Position numbers and translations under genes: made by a program. Shown here piece after piece: positions 7,945-57,079 of a stretch of 64,000 nucleotides of DNA; position 1 is the first letter of the stretch; each line of letters begins with the position of its first letter. The stretch lies in contig CAXBYW010000004.1 of NCBI GenBank assembly GCA_963980225.1, positions 13,007-77,006 of the forward strand, given 5' to 3'. Origin of the DNA: an uncultured bacterium. Lineage in GTDB: Bacteria; Patescibacteriota; Microgenomatia; UBA1400; MFAQ01. The notes beneath the pieces were generated by a model. That model searched no databases and was not told the origin of the DNA. It saw only the letters and a program-made list of their open reading frames with translations.

Positions 7945-8349
7945 GGGGACGAAAGGTTTCGATGGAATAAGTACATTGACAGTGGCAAGCCGAGTCTTAG
8001 GACAAACTCGTTAATACTGACCTAAAAAATAACTGTCAACGAAGAGAAGACAGACAGCGTTATCGCTACAGCTCCAGTTTTTGCTGGTGTTGAAACCGGT
8101 CTCGCTCCCGCTTACCTTTTTGCGTAATCGGGTGTTTCTAGATGGTCTTTCTTTTAGGGATCGCTAGAGGCAGGTACAAACTTTAAGATGCTTTATTTTT
8201 GTTTAATTTAGGCAAAGATAAAAAAGACTTCTAAATTAACTTAAAACTGATTTTGTTTGTGGGTAGGTTTTGAGGAAAATACACAAACTAAGCTTGTAGA
8301 CATTGTTATTTATTTATTGCAGACGTGGGTTCGAATCCCACCGTCTCCA
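7945..8349 (+). ncRNA. ssrA: tmRNA (SsrA)
   Basis: 5' GGGGACG pairs with 3' CGTCTCC-A (tRNA-like acceptor). The 3' end has a T-arm GGTTCGAATCCCACC. An internal ORF-like stretch ends in TAA. Lies directly downstream of smpB. Confidence 0.8.
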
Positions 8350-8378
8350 CAAAGGTAAATGGTAAAATATTTTATGTT

Positions 8379-9236: not shown

Positions 9237-9321
9237 GGAGGGTTGGCCGAGTGGTCTATGGCGTTGGTTTCGAAAACCAATGGGTGTTAAGCCCGCACAG
9301 GTTCGAATCCTGTACCCTCCG
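9237..9321 (+). tRNA. tRNA-Ser(CGA)
   Basis: Acceptor GGAGGGT/ACCCTCC-G. Anticodon loop TTCGAAA (CGA). Long variable arm. Near-duplicate backbone of tRNA-Ser(UGA). Confidence 0.85.
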
Positions 9322-9344
9322 CAGTATTTACTTGCAATCTTGAT

Positions 9345-10397
9345 TTGACACAATCTTCGGGTTTTGTTAGACTAAATATAGGTATGAGATGGGTTTTTGC
9401 AGATGATGATCAAGTAAGTTTTTTTAAAGAAATTAAAGAGAAATCTGGTTTATCTAATGAAGTATTGGGTAGTTTTATTGGTGTGTCTGGTAGGAGTTTT
9501 GGTGACTGGGTTAATAGAAAGACGCTGCCTTCAAAAGAAGGTGTGTTAAGGTTGGGTCAAAAGTTTAAGATAATGGTTCCAAAGATATTGGAAGAAAGAG
9601 AGGAATTTTGGAGTGGAAGAATTCACGGAAGGAAAGCGGCTTTAAAGAGATTGAAGATTTATGGTCCTCCAGGTACACCCGAGGGTAGGAGGAAGGGTGG
9701 TTTGGTTTCCTGGCAAAGAAGACGAGAAAATCCTGATGTTTACAGGAAGCTAGGGTGTATTGTAGGAAATAAATTTATTAAACCAAAAAAGTCAGAAGAC
9801 CTAGCTGAGTTTGTTGGTATTGTTTTGGGGGATGGCTGTTTAACTAAAGATCAGTGTCAGATTTCTCTTAACATGATAGATGATAAAGAATATGTGAAGT
9901 ATGTTGCAAGATTGGTTTCAAAGCTTTTTGGATATGATCCAACAGTGGCTGAATATCCAGGGCAAACTGTTACGAGGATTATTATTACAGGTGTGTATTT
10001 TATAAAAATAATGAAAAGTTTTGGTTTGATAGTGGGAAATAAAACCAAGAATCAGGTTGGTGTCCCGGAATGGATAAAATCTGATAAAAACTTTTTTCGT
10101 GCCTGCATTAGGGGTTTGTTCGATACTGATGGAGGTACCTTTACTCACAAGCATAAAGTAAAGAGATACGATTATTGCCATTTTGGTTTAACTTATACAT
10201 CAGCTTGTAAACCACTGCTGTCTAGTTTTAAGAAATGTTTGGAGGTTGATGATATCAAGACTTATGGAAAAAAAGATTGTCTGTTTGTGTATAGAGTTGG
10301 TGATATTAATAGTTTTTTTAATATATATCAGACGAAGAATTTAAAACATGTTTATAGATTTAAAGACCATCTAAGTCGATCGACTAGGCTTAATTGA
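9345..10397 (+). CDS. double-motif LAGLIDADG homing endonuclease-like protein
   Basis: Two canonical LAGLIDADG motifs are present: FVGIVLGDGCLTK and IRGLFDTDGGTF, spaced about 100 aa apart. Free-standing between tRNA genes. The annotated start overlaps the tRNA 3' end, so the true start is probably the internal Met (MRWVF). Confidence 0.7.
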   Translation: MTQSSGFVRLNIGMRWVFADDDQVSFFKEIKEKSGLSNEVLGSFIGVSGRSFGDWVNRKTLPSKEGVLRLGQKFKIMVPKILEEREEFWSGRIHGRKAALKRLKIYGPPGTPEGRRKGGLVSWQRRRENPDVYRKLGCIVGNKFIKPKKSEDLAEFVGIVLGDGCLTKDQCQISLNMIDDKEYVKYVARLVSKLFGYDPTVAEYPGQTVTRIIITGVYFIKIMKSFGLIVGNKTKNQVGVPEWIKSDKNFFRACIRGLFDTDGGTFTHKHKVKRYDYCHFGLTYTSACKPLLSSFKKCLEVDDIKTYGKKDCLFVYRVGDINSFFNIYQTKNLKHVYRFKDHLSRSTRLN

Positions 10398-10415: not shown

Positions 10416-10499
10416 GGAGGGATGCAGGGAATGGTTAACCGGAACGCTTGGAAAGCGTTTGCCCTAACGGGCTTGGGGGTTCGAGTCCCCCTCCCTCCG
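10416..10499 (+). tRNA. tRNA-Ser(GGA)
   Basis: Acceptor GGAGGGA/TCCCTCC-G. Anticodon stem AACGC/GCGTT with loop TTGGAAA (GGA). Long variable arm. T-loop TTCGAGT. Confidence 0.8.
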
Positions 10500-10540
10500 C
10501 AGAGTAAGTGTTTTTTAGTATTTAGGATAGAATAGGGATT

Positions 10541-12310
10541 ATGGATCAGGTTGAAGAAATTAAGAGAAAAGTAAATATTGTTTCGTTGATTGGTGAGTAT
10601 GTTACTTTAAAGAATACGGGTAGAAACCATAAAGGACTGTGTCCGTTTCATGGAGAGAAAAGCCCGTCGTTTATGGTAAATGAGGAGTTACAGATTTATA
10701 AATGTTTTGGGTGTGGAGTTGGAGGTGATGTAATCAAGTTTTTGATGGAGATTGAGGGTTTAGATTTTATAGAAGCGTTGGAAAAACTGGCTAAAAGAGC
10801 TGGGGTTAAGTTAGAGAAAAAGGGGAGAGATAATCAGAGTAGTGAAAAGAAACGAGTATTGGAGATGCATTCTTTGGCTGGTGAGTACTATCATTACTTG
10901 CTTATGGAGCATAAGGTTGGAGAGGTGGCAAGAAAGTATTTGTTGGGTAGGGGTTTGAACAAGAAAATTTGGGAGAGTTTTCGTTTAGGTTTTTCTTTAT
11001 CTACATGGGATGGGTTGAGTAAGTTTTTGATTGAAAAAAAGGGTTTTAAGGAGAATGAACTAATCAGTGCAGGACTTTCGATAAAGGGAAGTAAGGGAGG
11101 AGTGTATGACAGGTTTAGAGGTAGGATAATGTTTCCTTTACTTGATAGTGGTGAGAAGGTGGTTGGTTTTTCAGGTAGGGTAATTCCTGAACTTGCTAGG
11201 GAAAATGAACCTAAATATATAAACTCACCGGAGACGCTTGTGTACCATAAGTCACAGATGCTTTTTGGTTTGACTCAAGCAAGGCAAGCGATAAGAAAAA
11301 AGGATCAGGTGGTGGTAGTGGAAGGAGAGTTGGACATGATTAGTTCCTTTATGGCAGGAGTGACTGAGACGGTGGCTATTAAAGGGTCTGCTTTAACAGA
11401 GGAAATGGTAGAGAAACTAGCTAGGTTGTGTAACTTGGTTATCTTGGCTTTGGATGCTGATGATGCAGGCGAGGAAGCGTTGAAGAAGTCTATTGAGACA
11501 CTGGAAAAAAGAGGTTTGGAGGTAAAAGTGGTGTATTGGTCTGACGGTAAGGATCCAGATGAACTAGCTAGAAAAAACCCTTTGTCGTGGAGAAAACTGG
11601 TTGACAAGCCGGTGTCGGTATATGAATGGATAATGAAAAAGGCTTTTGATAAATGGGGGGTGGAGACGCCGGAAGACATAAAAAAAATAGTAAAAATGAC
11701 TGTGCCTTACTTGTCCAAGATAGAAAATAGGGTGGTGGCGGAAGTTTGGGTGAAGAGGTTGGCGGAAAAACTAGGTGTAGGTAAAGAAAGAGTTTGGGAA
11801 GAGGTTGAAAAAAGTGGAAAAAGAAGTGAGTTAAGAACTGAGTCAAGTACTAAGGAGGTAGAGAAAATAGAGGAGACGGACAACAAGACACATAAACTTA
11901 CAGAAAGACTTTTAACTGTTCTGTTTCAACTTGAGGGAGAAGAAAAAGGGTTGGTGAAAAAGATACTTTCAGGGATTAGTTTGGATGGTGCTGCCGGTAA
12001 ACTCTTAATAAGGTGGGTTAAGACTAAAGATGGAAAGATTGCTAGTTGGATCAAGAAGTTGCCGGATGAATTAAGAGTGGTGGCAGAAAGGTGTTTTATT
12101 AATGAAAAAGAAGAAGGTTTAGGGGAAAGAGAGGTTGTTAGGTTAGCTGTGGACTTGGCTAGAAATAAATTACAGGAAGAAAGAGTAGTTTTGATCGGTA
12201 AGTTGGAAATGGTGGAAAAGACTGATGATGAGGGTAAAATAGAGGAAATTAGTAGGAGATTGGTGTGGCTAGACAAGAAAGAAAGATTAATAGTTGGGTT
12301 TTTGATCTAG
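10541..12310 (+). CDS. dnaG: DNA primase
   Basis: N-terminal CHC2 zinc finger ([18 protein letters not shown]). Toprim region present ([24 protein letters not shown]). Confidence 0.9.
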
Positions 12311-12356: not shown

Positions 12357-13508
12357 TTGTTTGAAAAATCAAGATATATGGCTACAAAAAAGACCAAGAA
12401 ACAAACCAAGAAACAGGCAGGGACAAAGACGTTGCCTGTTGAGATGATTATTAAAACTCTTTTAAAAAAAGGAAAAGAGTATGGTTTTGTAACCCAAGAA
12501 GAGATTTTTGAGTATTTCCCTGACGCAGAAAAGAGAGTTGATGATTTGGATAAATTATACAATGAGCTGTTTTCGGCAGAGATTGATGTGTTTGAGAGTG
12601 TTTTGATGGGGGAAGAGAGTGTGGTAGTAAATGCTGATTTAGAGAAGGAGCTAGAAGAAGTTTCTAAAATGGATAGGAAAACTATTAATGACCCGGTAAG
12701 GATGTATTTAAGAGAGATTGGAAGAATTCCTCTTTTGAAAAGAGAGGAAGAGATTTCTTTAGCTCAACAAGTTGATAGAGATGATCCTAAAGCTAAGGCT
12801 AAGTTGACCCAAAGTAACTTAAGGTTGGTTGTTTCTATTGCTAAGAAGTATATGGGAAGAGGTATGAGCTTTTTAGACTTAATCCAAGAAGGAAATAAGG
12901 GTTTGATTAGAGCGGTAGAAAAATATGACTGGACAAAGGGATACAAATTTTCCACTTATGCAACCTGGTGGATTAGACAGGCAATAACTAGGGCAATTGC
13001 TGATCAGGCAAGAACGATTAGAATTCCAGTTCATATGGTAGAGACGATTAATAAGTTAATTCGTACTCAGAGAAAACTAATGCAAGATCTGGGTAGGGAA
13101 CCAACTGATGAAGAAGTGGGTGACGAGTTAGAGATTACACCAGAGAGAGTTAGGGAGATTTTGAAGATTTCACAGAAGACAACTTCTTTGGAGACTCCAA
13201 TTGGAGATGAGGAAGATTCGCTTTTAGGAGACTTTATTCCAGATGACAGACAAGCTTCACCATATGAAGTAACTAGTAAACAGTTAATGCATGAGAACTT
13301 AGAGTCGGCTCTTGATGCTTTAACAGAAAGAGAAAGTAAGGTACTAAAGATGCGATTTGGTTTGGCTGGGAGTAAGCCACTTACACTAGAAGAGGTAGGA
13401 AGACATTTTGGAGTAACCAGGGAAAGAATAAGACAGATCGAGAGTAAGGCGATAAGGAAGCTAAGACATCCAAGTAGAAAACGAAGACTGCAGGACTTTT
13501 TAGATTAG
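12357..13508 (+). CDS. rpoD: RNA polymerase primary sigma factor (sigma-70 family)
   Basis: Regions 2-4 are conserved ([28 protein letters not shown]; region 4 [22 protein letters not shown]). Follows dnaG as in the macromolecular-synthesis operon. Confidence 0.9.
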
Positions 13509-13522
13509 TATAGAATTAAAGT

Positions 13523-13843
13523 ATGATAGGAAAACTTTTAGTTAGTACGATCGCCTTTTATGTAACAGCTTACTTGGTCCCTGGAGTAACGATTGCAGGC
13601 TGGGCCCCTTTATTGGTGGTGTCTGTTGTTTGGGGGATACTAGCTATGTTGATTAGACCTTTACTGATACTTTTGACTTTACCGGTTAATATTATGACTT
13701 TGGGACTATTTACCTTGGTTATAAACGCGGCTTTGGTACTGATGACAGCTAGGTTAGTGGAAGGATTTAGTGTAGAGAGTTTTGGCGCAGCCATGATTGC
13801 AGCCTTAGTGCTGGCAATTATCAATATGATTTTTGGGAGATGA
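13523..13843 (+). CDS. phage-holin-4_2-like (PF04020 family) small membrane protein
   Basis: 106 aa with 3-4 TM helices and the family pattern YLVPGVTIAGW..LIRPLLILLTLPVNIMTLGLFTLVINAALV..LVEGFSVESFG. Confidence 0.6.
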   Translation: MIGKLLVSTIAFYVTAYLVPGVTIAGWAPLLVVSVVWGILAMLIRPLLILLTLPVNIMTLGLFTLVINAALVLMTARLVEGFSVESFGAAMIAALVLAIINMIFGR

Positions 13844-14157
13844 AAAGGTTTTCAGGATTTTTGGAGTTTGTCCGTGAACAGGGTGTGGTGGGTTTGGCAG
13901 TTGGTTTTATTTTAGGAGGGTCGGTGTCCAAGGTGGTGTCTTCTTTGGTAAAGGATGTTATTAACCCTATCTTGGGAATATTTTTAGGAGCAACCGGTAA
14001 CTTGAGCTCGTACAGCTTGAGGATTGGCTCATCGGAAATTCTGTGGGGTAGTTTCTTATCGGTATTGATTGATTTTGTGTTAATTGCTTTTGTGGTGTAT
14101 TTTGGGGTGAAAAAACTAGGATTAGATAAGTTAGACAAGAAGAAAGAGAAGAAGTAG
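13840..14157 (+). CDS. mscL: large-conductance mechanosensitive channel
   Basis: 105 aa. MscL signature: FREFVREQGVVGLAVGFILGGSVSKVVSSLVKDVINPILG, a second TM helix, and a KKEKK C-terminal tail. Confidence 0.85.
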   Translation: MKRFSGFLEFVREQGVVGLAVGFILGGSVSKVVSSLVKDVINPILGIFLGATGNLSSYSLRIGSSEILWGSFLSVLIDFVLIAFVVYFGVKKLGLDKLDKKKEKK

Positions 14158-14252
14158 GTTGAAGTTTTTAGATTATGGCTTGGTTTGAGAGTGTTTTTAG
14201 GTTAAAATAGTGAGGCTTCTGGAATTTATTTTTAGAAGTTGTACATTTATAT

Positions 14253-14541
14253 TCCCCGGTAGCTCAGTTGGTAGAGCGCGCGACTGTCGATTGGCAGCTT
14301 CCATTGGAAACTTTGGAATGATAATTGGGTGAACTGCGGGAAGCCTAAGTGGTTAATAACTATATGGGAATCCGCAGCCAAGCCCACTTTTAGTGGGAAG
14401 GTTCAGAGACTAGGTGAGTACACCCTAGAGCGCCCGACACCTAAATTCGAAAGGATATGGTGATGAGATAGTCCACGCCATTTGGAAACAAGTGGATTAA
14501 GTGTAATCGCTAGGTCACTGGTTCGAGTCCAGTCCGGGGAG
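14253..14541 (+). tRNA. tRNA-Asn(GUU) interrupted by a group I intron in the anticodon loop (exons 14253-14287 and 14504-14541)
   Basis: The exons reconstitute a canonical tRNA-Asn: TCCCCGG-TA-GCTCAGTTGGTAGAGC-G-CGCGA-CTGT^TAA-TCGCT-AGGTC-ACTGGTTCGAGTCCAGT-CCGGGGA-G. It closely parallels E. coli tRNA-Asn, including U1-A72 and the CUGUUAA loop. Confidence 0.8.
14288..14503 (+). ncRNA. group I self-splicing intron (216 nt, ORF-less) inserted between anticodon positions 35 and 36 of tRNA-Asn
   Basis: The 5' exon ends in U and the intron ends in G (omega-G). The intron's GCAG pairs with exon CUGU to form P1 with a U-G wobble. The intron 5' CGAUUG pairs perfectly with the 3' exon UAAUCG to form P10. 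The core resembles known tRNA group I introns (CGCAGCCAAG, AGAGACUAG as in the Azoarcus/Anabaena P7 region). Confidence 0.75.
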
Positions 14542-14609
14542 CTCGATTTTTTACTCAAATGATTTTATGGCCCAACGTGGACAATTCAACCTTTTGGTAA
14601 ACTTAAGCT

Positions 14610-26989: not shown

Positions 26990-28324
26990 ATGATGAGGTT
27001 GAAGTTTTTAGGAGCAGCTGGAATGGTAACGGGATCTTGTTATTTTCTGCAAGGGGTTAGTGGTAGCTTGGTGGTGGATATGGGAATGTTTCAAGGTTTA
27101 AATAGTAGAGAGTTAAATACTAAGTGGCCGGAGATCGATGTTAGCAACCTTAAGGGGGTACTAGTAACTCATGCCCACTTGGATCATGGAGGTAGATTAC
27201 CTTTGTTGGTAAAGATGGGATATAAGGGTAAGGTGTACATGACGGCGGCGACCAGAGATTTGGTAGAGTTATCCTTACATGATACGGTTAAGATTAGTCG
27301 TGAAAGTCATGGAGATAAGTTGTTTGGGGAAGAGGAAGTTATGCAGCTTTTGAGTCAGGTGGAAATTTTAGAGATTGGAGAAACGAAAGTTTTGGATGAG
27401 TTTAAGGTAAGTTTTTTGAGAGCCGGTCATATTTTAGGAGCAGTAAGTGTGTTGGTAGAGGCCCAAAAAAAACGAATTGTGTTTAGTGGAGACTTGGGGA
27501 CAGGGGAGTCTCCTTTGATCAAGCCACCGGAACCACCAGAAAAGGCTGATGTGGTGGTGTTGGAGTCTACTTATGGAGATAGGTTGCATGAAAATGAAGA
27601 TGAAGAGAAAATTTTAAAGGAAGAGATAAAGCAAATAAGTGAGAGTAATGGGGTTCTTCTGTTGCCGGTATTTTCTATTCAAAGGTCTCAGAGAGTGTTA
27701 CATTTGTTGGATCATATTCAAAAAAAGGGTGGTTTACCTGGTGGTATGAAGGTGTATTTTGATAGTCCTATGGCAATTGAAGCAACCAAGATTTTTGGTA
27801 AGTACAGACAGTATTATGGTGGGGAGATGGCAAACCATTCTAAAAAAGATGATCCGTTTGAGTTTCCTGGATTGGTGGTAACAAGAGATGCTTGGGAGAA
27901 AAAGATAATAAGAAAGGACAAGGGTGCAAAGATAATTGTGGCGGGAAGTGGAATGATGAGTGGAGGGAGAATGATGGGACACGCAAAGGAATACTTGTCT
28001 AAAAAGAATACAAGATTATTGATTGTTGGTTATCAGGCTGTAGGAACCTTGGGAAGGAAGATTGTGAACGGAGATAAGTTAGTAAATATTGACGGTGTGG
28101 ATGTGGATGTAAAAGCTGGAATAAGGCAGATTCACTCTATGAGTGCACATGCAGATCAAGAACAACTACTTTTATGGTTGTCTAAAATTAAAGGAGTAGA
28201 AAAAGTAATATTGACTCATGGTGAGGATGAACCAAGACAGGTTTTGGGTGAAAAGGTGAAAACTATGTTTGGAGTAGGTGTGGAGAAACCCTTACTCAAT
28301 GAAGATATAGGAGTGATAGAATAG
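26990..28324 (+). CDS. MBL-fold metallo-hydrolase of the beta-CASP RNA-metabolising family
   Basis: HAHLDHGG metallo-beta-lactamase motif, downstream beta-CASP region and a C-terminal RNA-specificity domain. Follows the RRM protein. Confidence 0.7.
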   Translation: MMRLKFLGAAGMVTGSCYFLQGVSGSLVVDMGMFQGLNSRELNTKWPEIDVSNLKGVLVTHAHLDHGGRLPLLVKMGYKGKVYMTAATRDLVELSLHDTVKISRESHGDKLFGEEEVMQLLSQVEILEIGETKVLDEFKVSFLRAGHILGAVSVLVEAQKKRIVFSGDLGTGESPLIKPPEPPEKADVVVLESTYGDRLHENEDEEKILKEEIKQISESNGVLLLPVFSIQRSQRVLHLLDHIQKKGGLPGGMKVYFDSPMAIEATKIFGKYRQYYGGEMANHSKKDDPFEFPGLVVTRDAWEKKIIRKDKGAKIIVAGSGMMSGGRMMGHAKEYLSKKNTRLLIVGYQAVGTLGRKIVNGDKLVNIDGVDVDVKAGIRQIHSMSAHADQEQLLLWLSKIKGVEKVILTHGEDEPRQVLGEKVKTMFGVGVEKPLLNEDIGVIE

Positions 28325-53551: not shown

Positions 53552-53941
53552 ATGAGGCAGTGGTGGAAGACGTGTTATAGTTTATCTATGGCTACAATTA
53601 AGGAAGTTGAACCAAGATCAATATCGGTGGATGAAGAGGCACTAAAAGAAGTAGAAGGATATGTGGAAAGAGTAGAGAAGCAAATGGAGATTAAGAAGCC
53701 GTCTAATCCATTACAACCTTCTTCAGTAAAAACTCCTGCACCTAAAGTTCAAGATGATTTTGGTAATGTGGTAATGCAGGCAGCTCAGAAACAAGTTAAG
53801 GCAAAAATTATATTACCAATGGATGAAATAGAGGTAAAAGAAGGTTTGCATCATAAGATAATAGATGCTGCTAGATGGTTGGCAGAATGGTGTGTGTTAA
53901 TGATTAAAAAATATCCAGGTAGAGTGTTTTATAAACGATGA
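53552..53941 (+). CDS. hypothetical protein
   Basis: 129-aa ORF (likely starts at the internal MATIKEV) immediately upstream of, and overlapping, the T4SS-like ATPase gene. Confidence 0.35.
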   Translation: MRQWWKTCYSLSMATIKEVEPRSISVDEEALKEVEGYVERVEKQMEIKKPSNPLQPSSVKTPAPKVQDDFGNVVMQAAQKQVKAKIILPMDEIEVKEGLHHKIIDAARWLAEWCVLMIKKYPGRVFYKR

Positions 53942-56259
53942 TTGATCTAGCTAACATGGTGCAGTATGTTTTTGGAGTGGTTTTGGGGTTGTCATTGTTT
54001 TTGACGGTATTTATTGGCTTAGGGATAATATTGTTGCAGTGGCTTAGGTTCAAGAACAGAGAAGAGGTTAGTCTTAATTTTGTTTTACTAGAGTTGGCTG
54101 TACCAAGAGATAATGAGATTAAGATAGATGCGGCAGAACAGATGTTTGCGGCTCTTTCTTCTATTAAGAAGGGTGGCTTTTGGCAAAAATTTAAAGCTCA
54201 ACAGCATTTGTCTTTTGAGATAGTGGGCAAGAAAGAAGATATAAGATTCTATGTTTCATGTCATAGGGATAACATGGAACTTATTGATAAGCAGTTGGCT
54301 GGCGCTTATCCTGGTATTCAAGTGAAGGAAGTAGATGAGTACAATATTTTTGATGAACAAGGTAAGGTCGCTTTTACGGAGTTGGTTTTAAAAAATGAGT
54401 CTTTTAAGCCAATAAAGAGTTATAGAGAACTACCAGTTGACTCCTTATCTCAAATTACTTCTTCTTTAGCTAAGTTTGGAGATGATGAGGGGGCAGTGAT
54501 ACAGATGATTATTAGTCCAGCTGATCCTGCTTGGAGCAAGTCAGGAAGTGGTTTCTTGTCTAAAACAAAAAAAGATGAGGCTGATCCTGAGAAGGCAAGC
54601 TTCAAGATGAGTCCACAAGACATGGAAGCTATTGATCAAAAAGTTGGTAAGCCAGGTTTTTTGGCTAGTGTGAGGATTGTGTGTGTGGCGCCAAGTGAAG
54701 GTCAAGCAAAAAGTAACTTAAGTAACTTAAAAGGTGTTTTTGCTCAGTATTCAAGTGATTTGAATAATTTTTCTAGCAAGAAAATTAGATTTAAAAAAGG
54801 TTTCATGGTGGATTTTGTTTATAGATACCAATCGTTATTTGGTAATAATTCTGTTTTATCTAGTGATGAGTTGGCAACGATGTGGCATATGCCAAACAAT
54901 ACGATACAGACACCACATATTCACTGGTTAAATGCTAAGAGTGCACCAGCATCTGGTGGTTTCCCGTCCACTGGTCTCTGGTTGGGTAGATCAATTTACC
55001 GAGGTCAGACAAGAAATATATTTATGAGTGAGGCGGATAGGATGAGGCACATGTACATTATTGGACGAACCGGTACAGGAAAAACAGAGCTTTTAAAGCA
55101 GATGATTATTCAGGACATGAGGGCTGGTAATGGTTTGTGTTTTCTAGAACCACATGGTGATGGAATAGAAGAACTTTTGGAGATGGTGCCACCAGAACGA
55201 GCAGAGGATGTAATTGTGTTTGACCCAGCTGATGAAGAGAGACCAATCGGATTTAATCCGATGTCGGTTAAGAATATCGATGAGATTTATCAAGTGGCGA
55301 GTTCGATAATTAATCTGATGTACAAGCTTTATGATCCTAATAAGACGGGGATGGTTGGTCCTAGGTTTGAACATTCAGTCAGAAACATAATGTTAACGGT
55401 GGCGGTAGAAAAGGGTGCTGGTTTTGTAGAAATTGTGAGAGCTTTAACAGATAGTAAGTATGTTCAAGAGCTTCTACCAAAAGTAAAAGATCCGGTGGTA
55501 AAAAGGTACTGGACGGATCAAATCGCTCAGACAAGTGATTTTCATAAGAGTGAGGTCTTAGACTACATTACTTCTAAGTTTGGTAGGTTTGTTACAAATA
55601 GAATGATAAGAAATATTATTGGCCAAAGTGAGACGACATTGGACTTTAGAAAGGCCATGGACGAGGGGAAGATTGTGTTTTTGAAATTAGCTAAGGGTTT
55701 GATCGGTGAAGAAGACTCTAACTTTTTAGGATTAGTTTTGGCGCCGAAAATTTTACAAGCAGCTTTGTCTAGGCAAGACACGCCTAGGGAGCAAAGGAGA
55801 CCGTTTTACTTTTATGTTGATGAGTTTCAAAACTTTGCTACACCAGACTTCGCTCAAATGCTATCTGAAGCCAGAAAATATAACTTGGGGCTTATACTAG
55901 CTAATCAGTTTGTTAGTCAGGTGGATGAGCAAGTGCGAGATGCTATTTTTGGTAACGTGGGTACCTTGATGAGCTATCGGGTTGGAGTACAAGATGCAAG
56001 TATTCTAGCTAAGTCTTTTGCCCCAACGTTTAACGAAGGGGATTTGTCGAACATTGGAGCTCAAAATCTTTATGTAAAAACCATTGTTGATGGTACACCG
56101 GTGCCACCTTTTAGTATGAATGTGTGGAGAGACCTAGAAAAAGAGAGAGGACATGGTAGTGCAAAGGTGGCAACATTAGTTAAAGAACTGTCTTCTTTAA
56201 AGTATGGTAGGGATAGGGCAGAAGTTGAGGAGGAGATTTTGAGAAGATCTAAGCTGTAA
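53938..56259 (+). CDS. VirB4/VirD4-like type IV secretion system ATPase (FtsK/HerA-TraG superfamily P-loop NTPase)
   Basis: 773 aa. N-terminal TM hairpin, Walker A IIGRTGTGKTE near residue 375, Walker B FYFYVDEFQNF (DEF as in TraG/VirD4-type coupling proteins). The roughly 300-aa N-terminal domain is VirB4-like. Confidence 0.6.
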   Translation: MIDLANMVQYVFGVVLGLSLFLTVFIGLGIILLQWLRFKNREEVSLNFVLLELAVPRDNEIKIDAAEQMFAALSSIKKGGFWQKFKAQQHLSFEIVGKKEDIRFYVSCHRDNMELIDKQLAGAYPGIQVKEVDEYNIFDEQGKVAFTELVLKNESFKPIKSYRELPVDSLSQITSSLAKFGDDEGAVIQMIISPADPAWSKSGSGFLSKTKKDEADPEKASFKMSPQDMEAIDQKVGKPGFLASVRIVCVAPSEGQAKSNLSNLKGVFAQYSSDLNNFSSKKIRFKKGFMVDFVYRYQSLFGNNSVLSSDELATMWHMPNNTIQTPHIHWLNAKSAPASGGFPSTGLWLGRSIYRGQTRNIFMSEADRMRHMYIIGRTGTGKTELLKQMIIQDMRAGNGLCFLEPHGDGIEELLEMVPPERAEDVIVFDPADEERPIGFNPMSVKNIDEIYQVASSIINLMYKLYDPNKTGMVGPRFEHSVRNIMLTVAVEKGAGFVEIVRALTDSKYVQELLPKVKDPVVKRYWTDQIAQTSDFHKSEVLDYITSKFGRFVTNRMIRNIIGQSETTLDFRKAMDEGKIVFLKLAKGLIGEEDSNFLGLVLAPKILQAALSRQDTPREQRRPFYFYVDEFQNFATPDFAQMLSEARKYNLGLILANQFVSQVDEQVRDAIFGNVGTLMSYRVGVQDASILAKSFAPTFNEGDLSNIGAQNLYVKTIVDGTPVPPFSMNVWRDLEKERGHGSAKVATLVKELSSLKYGRDRAEVEEEILRRSKL

Positions 56260-57002: not shown

Positions 57003-57079
57003 GGGCCGGTAGCTCAGTTGGTCAGAGCGCGAAGCTTATACCTTCGTGGTCGCTGGTTCGAGTCCAGCTCGGCCCACCA
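57003..57079 (+). tRNA. tRNA-Ile(UAU)
   Basis: GGGCCGG-TA-GCTC..GAGC-G-CGAAG-CTTATAC-CTTCG-TGGTC-GCTGGTTCGAGTCCAGC-TCGGCCC-A-CCA. Anticodon loop CUUAUAC gives anticodon UAU. Confidence 0.8.

What the first reader, a model, noticed from the sequence alone, without database searches (positions are those of the whole stretch)
14253..14541. tRNA-Asn(GUU) split by a compact ORF-less group I intron between anticodon positions 35 and 36
The flanks assemble into a textbook tRNA-Asn only if 216 nt (14288-14503) are removed. The insert obeys group I rules. The 5' exon ends in U, which pairs with the G of an internal guide GCAG to form P1. The intron ends in G. The first six intron nucleotides (CGAUUG) are perfectly complementary to the first six 3'-exon nucleotides (UAAUCG), as expected for P10. 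The core carries CAGCCAAG and AGAGACUAG elements like the Azoarcus tRNA-Ile and cyanobacterial tRNA-Leu introns. Bacterial tRNA group I introns are best known in tRNA-Leu(UAA), fMet, Ile(CAU) and Arg. An Asn(GUU) host with a 35/36 insertion site appears unusual, and it would be the cell's only tRNA-Asn.
Basis: partly seen in the sequence, partly recalled or inferred. Interest (0 to 1): 0.85.

Follow-up and report, generated by a model that had tools for sequence, protein, structure and literature searches.

The report
Known self-splicing intron in tRNA-Asn
The asparagine tRNA gene of this tiny-genome (Patescibacteria) bacterium is split inside its anticodon by a small self-splicing RNA intron; this is real, but the arrangement was reported in 2020 and shown to splice in vitro in a 2025 preprint published in 2026, so it is an ordinary member of a known class.

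Summary
Window 14253-14541 encodes tRNA-Asn(GUU), interrupted between anticodon positions 35 and 36 by a 216-nt ORF-less group I intron (14288-14503). Evidence: Rfam RF00028 at 83 bits; ARAGORN calls tRNA-Asn after in-silico splicing; a syntenic relative carries the uninterrupted gene, which fixes both boundaries to the base; and all core helices hold across 96 aligned introns (90 split tRNA-Asn, the rest tRNA-Asp or other hosts; 94.8% of cells paired against about 40% for slid controls; 55 of 64 pairs with compensatory changes).

The novelty claim fails. Williams (bioRxiv 2020) listed this class as "Asn.4Ug". Nakagawa et al. (bioRxiv 2025, mSystems 2026) found it to be the commonest tRNA intron in Patescibacteria and showed precise self-splicing in vitro. 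The window intron is 72% identical to their validated intron.

The "IC3-like" label is doubtful. The published classification is subgroup IA. This intron keeps a small hairpin at the P7.1 position and lacks P7.2, and it scores best against relatives that carry an insert there.

"The cell's only tRNA-Asn" is untestable from 64 kb.

The parts
14253..14287 (+). 5' exon of tRNA-Asn(GUU): positions 1-35, ending in G34 U35 (the last base is U-1 of the splice site)
   Evidence: ARAGORN calls tRNA-Asn on the spliced sequence. Intact phage tRNA-Asn genes and the intronless orthologue L144 align up to exactly 14287.
14288..14503 (+). Group I intron, 216 nt, no homing-endonuclease ORF
   Evidence: RF00028 at 83.2 bits, E = 1e-19. 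Model R1 and 96 aligned homologues. Covariation. The only fully internal ORF is 44 aa. 72-78% identity to published Asn 35/36 introns.
14504..14541 (+). 3' exon of tRNA-Asn: U36 through discriminator G73. CCA is not encoded (the next bases are CTC).
   Evidence: L144 5409-5447 aligns to 14504-14542.
14284..14297 (+). P1 hairpin: exon CUGU plus intron C (14284-88) paired with the internal guide GGCAG (14293-97). U14287.G14294 is the splice-site wobble.
   Evidence: Rfam alignment. Intron base +1 pairs with the base before GCAG in 76 of 83 family members (CG 31, AU 25, GC 15, GU 5). Helix 1 is 97.7% paired.
14299..14318 (+). P2 hairpin with a GAAA tetraloop (14307-10). The window copy has two U.U mismatches.
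   Evidence: RNAalifold. All 8 pairs show compensatory changes.
14325..14331 (+). P3 5' strand, pairing with 14431-14437
   Evidence: 7 of 7 pairs show compensatory changes; 93.1% paired.
14335..14376 (+). P4 (14335-40 / 14371-76) enclosing P5 (14344-49 / 14363-67). P5 has the sequence of an 11-nt GAAA-tetraloop receptor (CCUAAG / UAUGG).
   Evidence: P4 is 98.9% paired, with 5 of 6 pairs compensatory. The receptor motif is read directly from the sequence; its function is inferred.
14377..14402 (+). P6 (14377-79 / 14400-02) and P6a (14383-87 / 14393-97)
   Evidence: Helices 7 and 8 are 96.7% and 97.8% paired, and all 8 pairs are compensatory.
14406..14412 (+). P7 5' strand (G06, bulged A07, GACUA 08-12), pairing with 14469-14474. 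G14408-C14473 is the inferred guanosine-binding pair.
   Evidence: Pseudoknot helix 9 is 98.6% paired and essentially invariant in 96 sequences. The G-site assignment is an inference from general group I architecture.
14413..14424 (+). Extra 4-bp hairpin GGUG-AGUA-CACC between P7 and P3', at the position of P7.1. No P7.2 is present.
   Evidence: Family comparison. The identical hairpin, followed by a second hairpin, is in published GCA_016700135.1. Helix 10 is 99.1% paired where present.
14431..14437 (+). P3 3' strand
14438..14462 (+). P8, with a CCUAAA / UAUGG receptor-like internal motif and a GAAA loop (14449-52)
   Evidence: Helices 11 and 12 are 98.1% and 90.5% paired, and all 8 pairs are compensatory.
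14469..14474 (+). P7 3' strand (UAGUCC)
14475..14502 (+). P9.0 (14475-76 with 14501-02) enclosing P9 (14478-84 / 14489-95, GAAA loop 14485-88)
   Evidence: P9.0 is 99.4% paired and both pairs are compensatory. All 7 pairs of P9 are compensatory.
14503..14503 (+). Omega-G, the last intron nucleotide
   Evidence: It immediately follows P9.0. The empty-site comparison with L144 places the junction after it. All 83 exon-mapped inserts end in G, although only G-TAA junctions could yield a 7-nt CUGUUAA loop.
14288..14293 (+). P10 guide: CGAUUG pairs with the 3'-exon bases 14504-14509 (UAAUCG; 5 Watson-Crick pairs plus 1 G.U)
   Evidence: Read from the sequence. Only 3 of 83 family members have 6 contiguous P10 pairs and most have 0-1, so a long P10 is not a family trait.

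Best explanation
This is the tRNA-Asn(GUU) gene of a Patescibacteria (CPR) bacterium, interrupted between anticodon nucleotides U35 and U36 by a compact, ORF-less, self-splicing group I intron. It belongs to the published 'Asn 35/36' (Asn.4Ug) class.

Inferred mechanism. The precursor is transcribed through 14253-14541. The intron folds into the P1-P9 core. An exogenous guanosine bound in the P7 pocket attacks the phosphodiester after U14287, which sits in a U.G wobble with G14294 of the internal guide. Omega-G14503, positioned by P9.0, then replaces it. With the 3' exon held by P10 (14288-93 with 14504-09) and by the tRNA anticodon stem, the freed 3'-OH of U35 attacks after G14503. The exons are ligated into a 73-nt tRNA with anticodon loop CUGUUAA. 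End processing and CCA addition follow, because CCA is not encoded.

Shown here: the sequence, the boundaries, the homology and the covariation-supported secondary structure. Shown by others on a homologue with 72% identity: GTP-dependent precise splicing in vitro. Inferred: that this particular copy splices and that its product is the working tRNA-Asn.
For: - RF00028 matches at 83.2 bits, E = 1e-19.
- ARAGORN calls tRNA-Asn(gtt) on the spliced sequence.
- The empty site in syntenic L144 fixes the insert as exactly 14288-14503.
- Intact phage tRNA-Asn homology ends at 14287.
- Six independent metagenome contigs carry the locus at 100% identity.
- 90 split tRNA-Asn genes with an intron at the same site were found in other genomes: 81 mapped by their exons and 1 from the relative L007, 3 more resolved after splicing and 5 cut at a contig end.
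- P1 covaries.
- In the model-based alignment of 96 introns (90 split tRNA-Asn, the rest tRNA-Asp or other hosts), 94.8% of cells are paired against 39-43% for slid controls, 55 of 64 pairs have compensatory changes, and the covariation score is 0.571 against at most 0.089. P7 is invariant and P9.0 covaries.
- The intron is 72% identical to the experimentally spliced GCA_016700035.1 intron and 78% to GCA_016700315.1.
- Nakagawa et al. showed splicing, sequenced the junction and ran an omega-G to C control (PMC13011429).
Against: - There are no expression or splicing data for this copy.
- P2 has two U.U mismatches in the window copy.
- The consensus scans found no promoter or terminator on the + strand near the gene.
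- The alignment used for pair counting was fitted to the model's structure, which favours it; the slid controls mitigate this.
- P1's U.G and GCAG were required by my search pattern, so their conservation in the family is not independent evidence.
Confidence: 0.93

Rival explanations
1. The gene is tRNA-Thr(UGU) with the intron at 33/34 (5' exon ends at U14285, intron ends at G14501), as ARAGORN's intron mode calls it.
For: ARAGORN -i reports tRNA-Thr(tgt) i(34,216) on the unspliced sequence. Removing 14286-14501 also obeys the U-1 / omega-G rule and gives a 7-nt loop. Nakagawa et al. report the same two-base miscall by ARAGORN and tFind.
Against: U14285 is in a Watson-Crick pair with A14296, whereas the wobble is at U14287.G14294. 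Intronless orthologues, including syntenic L144, read CTGTTAA and align to 14287 | 14504. The tRNA body matches tRNA-Asn genes. P9.0 covariation places omega-G at 14503. Published junction sequencing of a homologue shows 35/36.
Confidence: 0.02
2. The intron is a decayed, non-splicing relic and the locus is a tRNA pseudogene; a different intact tRNA-Asn serves the cell.
For: Only 64 kb of the genome is visible. P2 carries two mismatches. No promoter was predicted.
Against: Every core helix (P1, P3-P9, P9.0) is intact in the window copy, and the locus is identical in six contigs from different samples. No intronless copy with this tRNA's sequence exists in the JGI metagenome collection, which does contain this organism; the nearest has 4 mismatches and comes from another species. 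Nakagawa et al. rarely found intron-containing and intronless copies of the same anticodon in one genome.
Confidence: 0.04
3. The intron belongs to subgroup IC3, like the Azoarcus tRNA-Ile and cyanobacterial tRNA-Leu introns, rather than IA.
For: It is small and sits in a tRNA anticodon loop. L2 and L9 are GAAA tetraloops, and P8 and P5 carry CCUAAA/UAUGG and CCUAAG/UAUGG receptor-like motifs. As I recall, that layout resembles the Azoarcus ribozyme; this is a lead from memory, not a test. Some family members at the same site have no insert at all between P7 and P3'.
Against: Published model-based typing puts 25 of 28 introns at 35/36 in IA and no Patescibacteria tRNA intron in IC. The window intron has an extra hairpin between P7 and P3', identical to the first of two hairpins (P7.1 + P7.2) in published GCA_016700135.1. 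Its best-scoring relatives carry an insert at that position (133-155 bits), while the insert-less members score lowest (55-65 bits).
Confidence: 0.2

Closest known systems
Group I introns at position 35/36 of tRNA-Asn(GUU) in Patescibacteria (Nakagawa et al., mSystems 2026, PMC13011429; preprint 10.1101/2025.07.03.662931; class 'Asn.4Ug' of Williams 2020, 10.1101/2020.01.27.920355)
   Same: Same host tRNA, same insertion site, same phylum, same U-1 / omega-G rule, same Asn-versus-Thr annotation pitfall, and mostly ORF-less. The window intron is 72% identical to the intron they spliced in vitro (GCA_016700035.1) and 78% to GCA_016700315.1.
   Different: This exact sequence is not in the part of their tables that is held. 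It carries only a 4-bp P7.1-type hairpin and no P7.2 or long P7.1 extension, and it has an unusually long 6-bp P10.
Group I introns at 35/36 of tRNA-Asp(GUC) in Patescibacteria (same paper)
   Same: Same site and a homologous ribozyme. L096's Asp intron starts with the identical CGAUUGGCAG. Seven such loci were picked up by my scan.
   Different: Different host tRNA (3' exon CAC..., acceptor GCGGCUG).
Classical bacterial tRNA introns of subgroup IC3: tRNA-Leu(UAA) 34/35, tRNA-fMet 33/34, tRNA-Ile(CAU) and tRNA-Arg(CCU) 36/37 (Azoarcus, Anabaena and others)
   Same: [quoted passage not shown] They share core strings (CAGCCAAG, AGAGACUAG), GAAA tetraloops and receptor-like motifs.
   Different: Different host tRNA and insertion site. 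They have no hairpin between P7 and P3'. Published typing separates the 35/36 introns (IA) from these (IC).
Subgroup IA group I introns of phages (for example T4 td and Twort orf142-I2)
   Same: An extra element between P7 and P3' (the P7.1/P7.2 position). Weak blastn similarity of the P2-P7 core to introns in phage genomes.
   Different: Phage IA introns sit in protein-coding genes, are usually larger, often carry homing-endonuclease ORFs and have both P7.1 and P7.2.

Membership tests
Group I intron (Rfam RF00028) | Scores above the curated threshold of the family covariance model | tested here: met
   83.2 bits against a gathering score of 50, E = 1e-19, full model 1-253.
Group I intron (Rfam RF00028) | P1 formed by the 5' exon end and an internal guide sequence, with a U.G wobble at the 5' splice site | tested here: met
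   U14287.G14294. The P1 extension pair covaries in 76 of 83 homologues.
Group I intron (Rfam RF00028) | Conserved core helices P3-P9, including the P3/P7 pseudoknot | tested here: met
   94.8% of cells paired against 39-43% for slid controls. 55 of 64 pairs are compensatory. P7 is invariant and 98.6% paired.
Group I intron (Rfam RF00028) | Terminal omega-G positioned by P9.0 | tested here: met
   G14503 directly follows P9.0 (14501-02 with 14475-76). Both P9.0 pairs covary. The empty site confirms the 3' boundary.
Group I intron (Rfam RF00028) | Guanosine-dependent self-splicing | not testable with these tools
   Demonstrated by Nakagawa et al. for a homologue with 72% identity, not for this copy.
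tRNA-Asn(GUU) | Canonical cloverleaf with anticodon GUU after removal of the insert | tested here: met
   ARAGORN calls tRNA-Asn(gtt), 73-74 nt, with loop CUGUUAA and discriminator G.
tRNA-Asn(GUU) | Homology to uninterrupted tRNA-Asn genes across the junction | tested here: met
   19 intronless metagenome tRNA-Asn genes share the 23-nt junction. Syntenic L144 differs at 4 of 73 positions.
Published 'Asn 35/36' (Asn.4Ug) intron class | Insertion between anticodon nucleotides 35 and 36 of tRNA-Asn(GUU), with U-1 and omega-G | tested here: met
   and the paper's definition.
Published 'Asn 35/36' (Asn.4Ug) intron class | Sequence homology of the ribozyme to published members | tested here: met
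   72-78% identity over aligned columns to six Table S3 introns. R1 finds full-length matches in all complete family loci and matches cut by a contig end in five others.
Subgroup IC3 | No extra helices between P7 and P3' (P7 joined to P3' by a short linker) | tested here: not met
   The 4-bp hairpin at 14413-24 plus a 6-nt linker lies between P7 and P3'.
Subgroup IC3 | Best score to an IC3-specific covariance model | not testable with these tools
   The subgroup models are not available here. Published typing of the class gives IA.
Subgroup IA | Additional pairings P7.1 and P7.2 (or P7.1a) between P7 and P3'. This definition rests on my own knowledge of the classification; the 2014 review confirms only that P7.1 and P7.2 are classifying elements. 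| tested here: inconclusive
   Only one short hairpin is present. It is identical to the first of two hairpins in published GCA_016700135.1. Relatives carry P7.1+P7.2 or a long P7.1.

The most novel reading that the evidence does not exclude
At the single Asn 35/36 insertion site, one homologous intron lineage spans several architectures: no insert between P7 and P3' (Azoarcus-like), a short P7.1 hairpin (this window), a long P7.1 hairpin, and full P7.1+P7.2. The split gene also occurs well beyond Patescibacteria: 30 of the 81 exon-mapped loci from the scan are in MAGs labelled Nitrospirota, Acidobacteriota, Planctomycetota, Omnitrophota, Methylomirabilota, delta-, beta- or gammaproteobacteria, Chloroflexota, Elusimicrobia or Cyanobacteria. 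Several of these lie on contigs of 0.3-2 Mb. If this holds up, the IA/IC3 boundary among bacterial tRNA introns is blurred by modular loss or gain of P7.1/P7.2, and the site is less Patescibacteria-specific than the survey of complete genomes suggested.
Probability: 0.4. Interest if true: 0.35.

Novelty: new member of a known kind. Interest (0 to 1): 0.15.

Why it matters
For this window it matters mainly for annotation. Standard tRNA finders miss this gene or call it tRNA-Thr, which makes a small genome look as if it lacks tRNA-Asn and can distort completeness estimates. Nakagawa et al. have already made that point. Biologically, if this is the only tRNA-Asn, every asparagine codon in the organism depends on a ribozyme reaction. 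That dependence is a property of the already described class and not a discovery at this locus.

Tried and rejected
- **ARAGORN, default mode** finds no tRNA at the locus. Its intron mode miscalls Thr(tgt). I rejected that call for the reasons given under the first rival explanation.
- **A brute-force deletion scan** showed that ARAGORN accepts almost any deletion, so 'only this deletion gives a tRNA' is not a valid test.
- **The first literature search** ('group I intron' + 'tRNA-Asn') returned only organelle papers. The spelling 'tRNAAsn' found the key papers.
- **P10 as a family feature:** most homologues have 0-1 contiguous P10 pairs in strict register, so I rejected it as a conserved trait.
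- **Consensus promoter and terminator scans** found nothing on the + strand near the gene.
- **A citable Azoarcus sequence** was searched for, to test the IC3 resemblance, and was not found. That resemblance therefore remains a lead from memory.
- **Neighbour-gene relatives** L008-L013 had no split tRNA-Asn next to the 199-aa ORF homologue, so synteny there is not conserved.

Full report
**What is at the coordinates.** TCCCCGGTAGCTCAGTTGGTAGAGCGCGCGACTGT (14253-14287) is followed by 216 nt that begin CGATTGGCAG and end TTAAGTG (14288-14503). Then comes TAATCGCTAGGTCACTGGTTCGAGTCCAGTCCGGGGAG (14504-14541). ARAGORN in default mode finds no tRNA there. After in-silico removal of 14288-14503 it calls a canonical tRNA-Asn(gtt) with loop CUGUUAA and discriminator G. 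Rfam's group I intron model matches 14278-14495 over its full length at 83.2 bits (gathering score 50, E = 1e-19), and it is the only such hit in the window. The only ORF wholly inside the intron is 44 aa.

**Fixing the splice sites.** ARAGORN alone cannot fix the boundaries, because it reports some tRNA for almost any nearby deletion. One alternative that also has a U before the 5' site and a G before the 3' site (remove 14286-14501) gives Thr(UGU), and this is what ARAGORN's intron mode reports. Four results settle the matter:
- In P1, U14287 sits in the U.G wobble with G14294, whereas U14285 is Watson-Crick paired with A14296.
- Intact mycobacteriophage tRNA-Asn genes align up to exactly 14287.
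- A metagenome scan for the spliced 23-nt junction found 19 uninterrupted tRNA-Asn genes. One of them, L144, lies on a 704-kb contig that is syntenic with the window (dnaG about 70% and rpoD about 73% nucleotide identity, same tRNA-Ser genes). L144 5367-5408 aligns to 14246-14287, and the very next base, 5409, aligns to 14504. This empty site defines the insert as exactly 14288-14503 and excludes the Thr reading.
- P9.0, which ends immediately before G14503, covaries in the family.

**Organism and context.** The window is a bacterial chromosome segment. dnaG (10541-12310), rpoD (12357-13508), a holin-family ORF and mscL (13840-14157) lie directly upstream of the split tRNA. Six metagenome contigs from several samples carry the locus at 100% identity. 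The downstream 199-aa ORF has relatives named 'Patescibacteria group bacterium'. One of these relatives, NCBI MAG GCA_023487645.1 (L007), has a tRNA-Asn split at the same 35/36 site by a diverged 184-nt group I intron.

**Distribution.** I scanned one genome per GTDB species with a pattern requiring the tRNA-Asn 5' half, a non-T base after CTGT, and a GCAG guide.
- In 81 of these loci a full tRNA-Asn cloverleaf appears only after removing an insert of 180-561 nt that ends in G and is followed by TAA.
- Three more resolved after splicing (L088, L094, L103; a fourth, L052, is ambiguous), and five are cut by a contig end.
- With L007, that makes 90 split tRNA-Asn genes besides the window.
- Seven further hits are tRNA-Asp(GUC) genes split at 35/36.
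- The remaining hits include intact tRNA-His genes and archaeal loci whose anticodon loop reads CUGUAG (probably tRNA-Tyr; not checked further).
- By record title, 41 of the 82 exon-mapped loci are Patescibacteria, 30 are labelled as other phyla, 8 are unclassified, 2 are on short contigs labelled archaeal and probably mis-binned, and 1 (L016) belongs with the tRNA-Asp group.

**Structure.** A manual fold, confirmed by RNAalifold on a plain MAFFT alignment, gives the following elements:

| Element | Coordinates and notes |
|---|---|
| P1 | 14284-88 / 14293-97 |
| P2 | 14299-306 / 14311-18, L2 GAAA |
| P3 | 14325-31 / 14431-37 |
| P4 | 14335-40 / 14371-76 |
| P5 | CCUAAG 14344-49 / UAUGG 14363-67 |
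| P6, P6a | 14377-79 / 14400-02; 14383-87 / 14393-97 |
| P7 | 14406 and 14408-12 / 14469-74, A14407 bulged |
| Extra hairpin | 14413-16 / 14421-24 |
| P8 | 14438-62, CCUAAA / UAUGG, L8 GAAA |
| P9.0 | 14475-76 / 14501-02 |
| P9 | 14478-84 / 14489-95, L9 GAAA |
| Omega-G | 14503 |

A covariance model built from the window sequence with this structure (R1) found full-length matches in every complete candidate locus, plus matches cut by a contig end in five. The match boundaries equal the intron coordinates I had derived independently from the exons. On the resulting 96-sequence alignment:
- 94.8% of cells form standard pairs, against 39-43% when partners are slid by 1-3 columns.
- 55 of 64 pairs show compensatory changes.
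- The covariation score is 0.571, against at most 0.089 for the slid controls.
- P7 is invariant and paired, and both P9.0 pairs covary.

Two caveats apply. The alignment was fitted to the model. P1's CUGU/GCAG was imposed by my search pattern. However, the unforced P1 extension pair (intron base +1 with the base before GCAG) is paired in 76 of 83 introns, using CG, AU, GC and GU.

P10 is 6 bp in the window (five Watson-Crick pairs and one G.U). In strict register it is only 0-1 bp in most relatives, so it is not a family trait.

**Comparison with the literature.** Williams (bioRxiv 2020) expanded the known tRNA-intron classes from 4 to 21 with tFind. Nakagawa et al. cite its 'Asn.4Ug' class. 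Nakagawa et al. (bioRxiv July 2025; mSystems January 2026) report the following:
- The same Asn-versus-Thr two-base miscall by ARAGORN and tFind.
- Precise GTP-dependent self-splicing in vitro, with junction sequencing and an omega-G to C control.
- Most of these introns lack homing endonucleases.
- 25 of 28 introns at 35/36 type as subgroup IA, and no Patescibacteria tRNA intron types as IC.

Their Table S3 sequences align to the window intron at 72% identity for the validated GCA_016700035.1 intron and up to 78% for GCA_016700315.1. The window locus is thus another member of a published, experimentally validated class.

**Subgroup.** Between the P7 5' strand (AGACUA) and the P3 3' strand, the family shows four layouts:
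- no insert (L007, L064, L082 and others);
- two hairpins, as in classic P7.1 + P7.2 (L022, L045 and others);
- one long hairpin with a conserved UGAGGA...CCAAUAA interior (L014, L027 and others);
- a short 4-bp hairpin (the window, L037, L081).

The window's GGUG-AGUA-CACC hairpin is identical to the first of two hairpins in published GCA_016700135.1. The window intron scores best against relatives that carry an insert there (L080 155, L037 151, L125 149 bits) and worst against the insert-less ones (55-65 bits). This agrees with the published IA typing and argues against a strict IC3 assignment. On the other side, the GAAA loops in L2 and L9 and the receptor-like motifs in P8 and P5 resemble what I recall of the Azoarcus IC3 ribozyme. 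I could not obtain a citable Azoarcus sequence to test that, and the subgroup covariance models are not available here, so I leave IC3 at about 0.2.

**What remains untested.** I could not test splicing of this copy, its expression, or whether it is the only tRNA-Asn. No other tRNA-Asn is in the window. No intronless gene with this tRNA's exact sequence is in the JGI metagenomes. The paper reports that intron-containing and intronless copies with the same anticodon rarely coexist in one genome.

**Verdict.** The subgroup label is doubtful and the novelty claim is wrong. Interest is low because the class is known and validated. The broader phylogenetic spread and the architectural range at this one site are modest extensions of the published survey.

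Noticed in passing
window 1-64000: Extreme GC skew on the + strand: 0.38 overall and 0.16-0.57 in 2-kb windows. At third codon positions G is 28% and C is 7% (skew 0.59). Regions whose genes lie on the minus strand still show +0.16 to +0.26 on the + strand, so the skew is not only a coding effect. The syntenic relative L144 shows 0.48, whereas other Patescibacteria loci are near 0.
   Followed up: partly
window 9345-10397 (+): A 350-aa ORF between tRNA-Ser(cga) 9237-9322 and tRNA-Ser(gga) 10416-10500. It matches only a LAGLIDADG_3 domain (Pfam E = 8e-8) and the endonuclease parts of intein-containing proteins (NCBIfam). It looks like a free-standing homing-endonuclease-like gene inside a tRNA cluster.
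   Followed up: partly
L016, L018, L026, L047, L078, L096, L129: Patescibacteria tRNA-Asp(GUC) genes (acceptor GCGGCUG) split at 35/36 by homologous group I introns. L096's intron begins with the same CGAUUGGCAG as the window's Asn intron. This is the second class described by Nakagawa et al.
   Followed up: yes
L037 4685-4905; L026 2042-2250; L129 963-1186: Second group I introns within 2 kb of the split tRNA-Asn or tRNA-Asp genes in the same contigs. In L037 the exons read UGAGG-CU | CAUAA-UCUCA, which I read as a CAU-anticodon tRNA split at 33/34. The host genes of the other two were not resolved.
   Followed up: partly
L014-L133 (genome scan): Split tRNA-Asn 35/36 genes occur in many MAGs labelled as non-Patescibacteria: Nitrospirota (L071, L102, L120), Acidobacteriota (L032, L049, L062), Planctomycetota (L048, L055), Omnitrophota (L085, L128, L130), Methylomirabilota (L034, L072, L122), delta proteobacteria (L027, L059, L100, L107, L113), Chloroflexota (L127), Elusimicrobia (L031) and a cyanobacterium (L038). 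Some lie on contigs of 0.3-2 Mb. Labels on short contigs may be binning errors.
   Followed up: partly
L027, L048, L075, L086, L095, L102: Asn 35/36 inserts of 352-561 nt that may carry ORFs. Nakagawa et al. report HNH endonucleases in long Asn introns. L095's insert contains a run of N, and L048 has two nearby pattern matches. None was examined.
   Followed up: no
window 57003-57079: tRNA-Ile with anticodon UAU, which is uncommon in bacteria.
   Followed up: no
window 7945-8352: tmRNA (Rfam 160 bits) with an unusually long predicted 30-residue tag, VNEEKTDSVIATAPVFAGVETGLAPAYLFA. The tag frame is ARAGORN's call and was not checked.
   Followed up: no
window 14239-14252 and L007 2127-2165: The sequence TTGTACATT(T/A)ATAT directly abuts the 5' end of the tRNA-Asn gene in both the window and L007. 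The consensus scan found no sigma-70-like promoter on the + strand. It may be a conserved promoter or processing signal.
   Followed up: no
window 26990-28324 and 53938-56259: A beta-CASP / Cas14-like metallo-beta-lactamase RNase homologue and a VirD4/TraD-like coupling-protein homologue (NCBIfam hits below the curated cut-offs).
   Followed up: no
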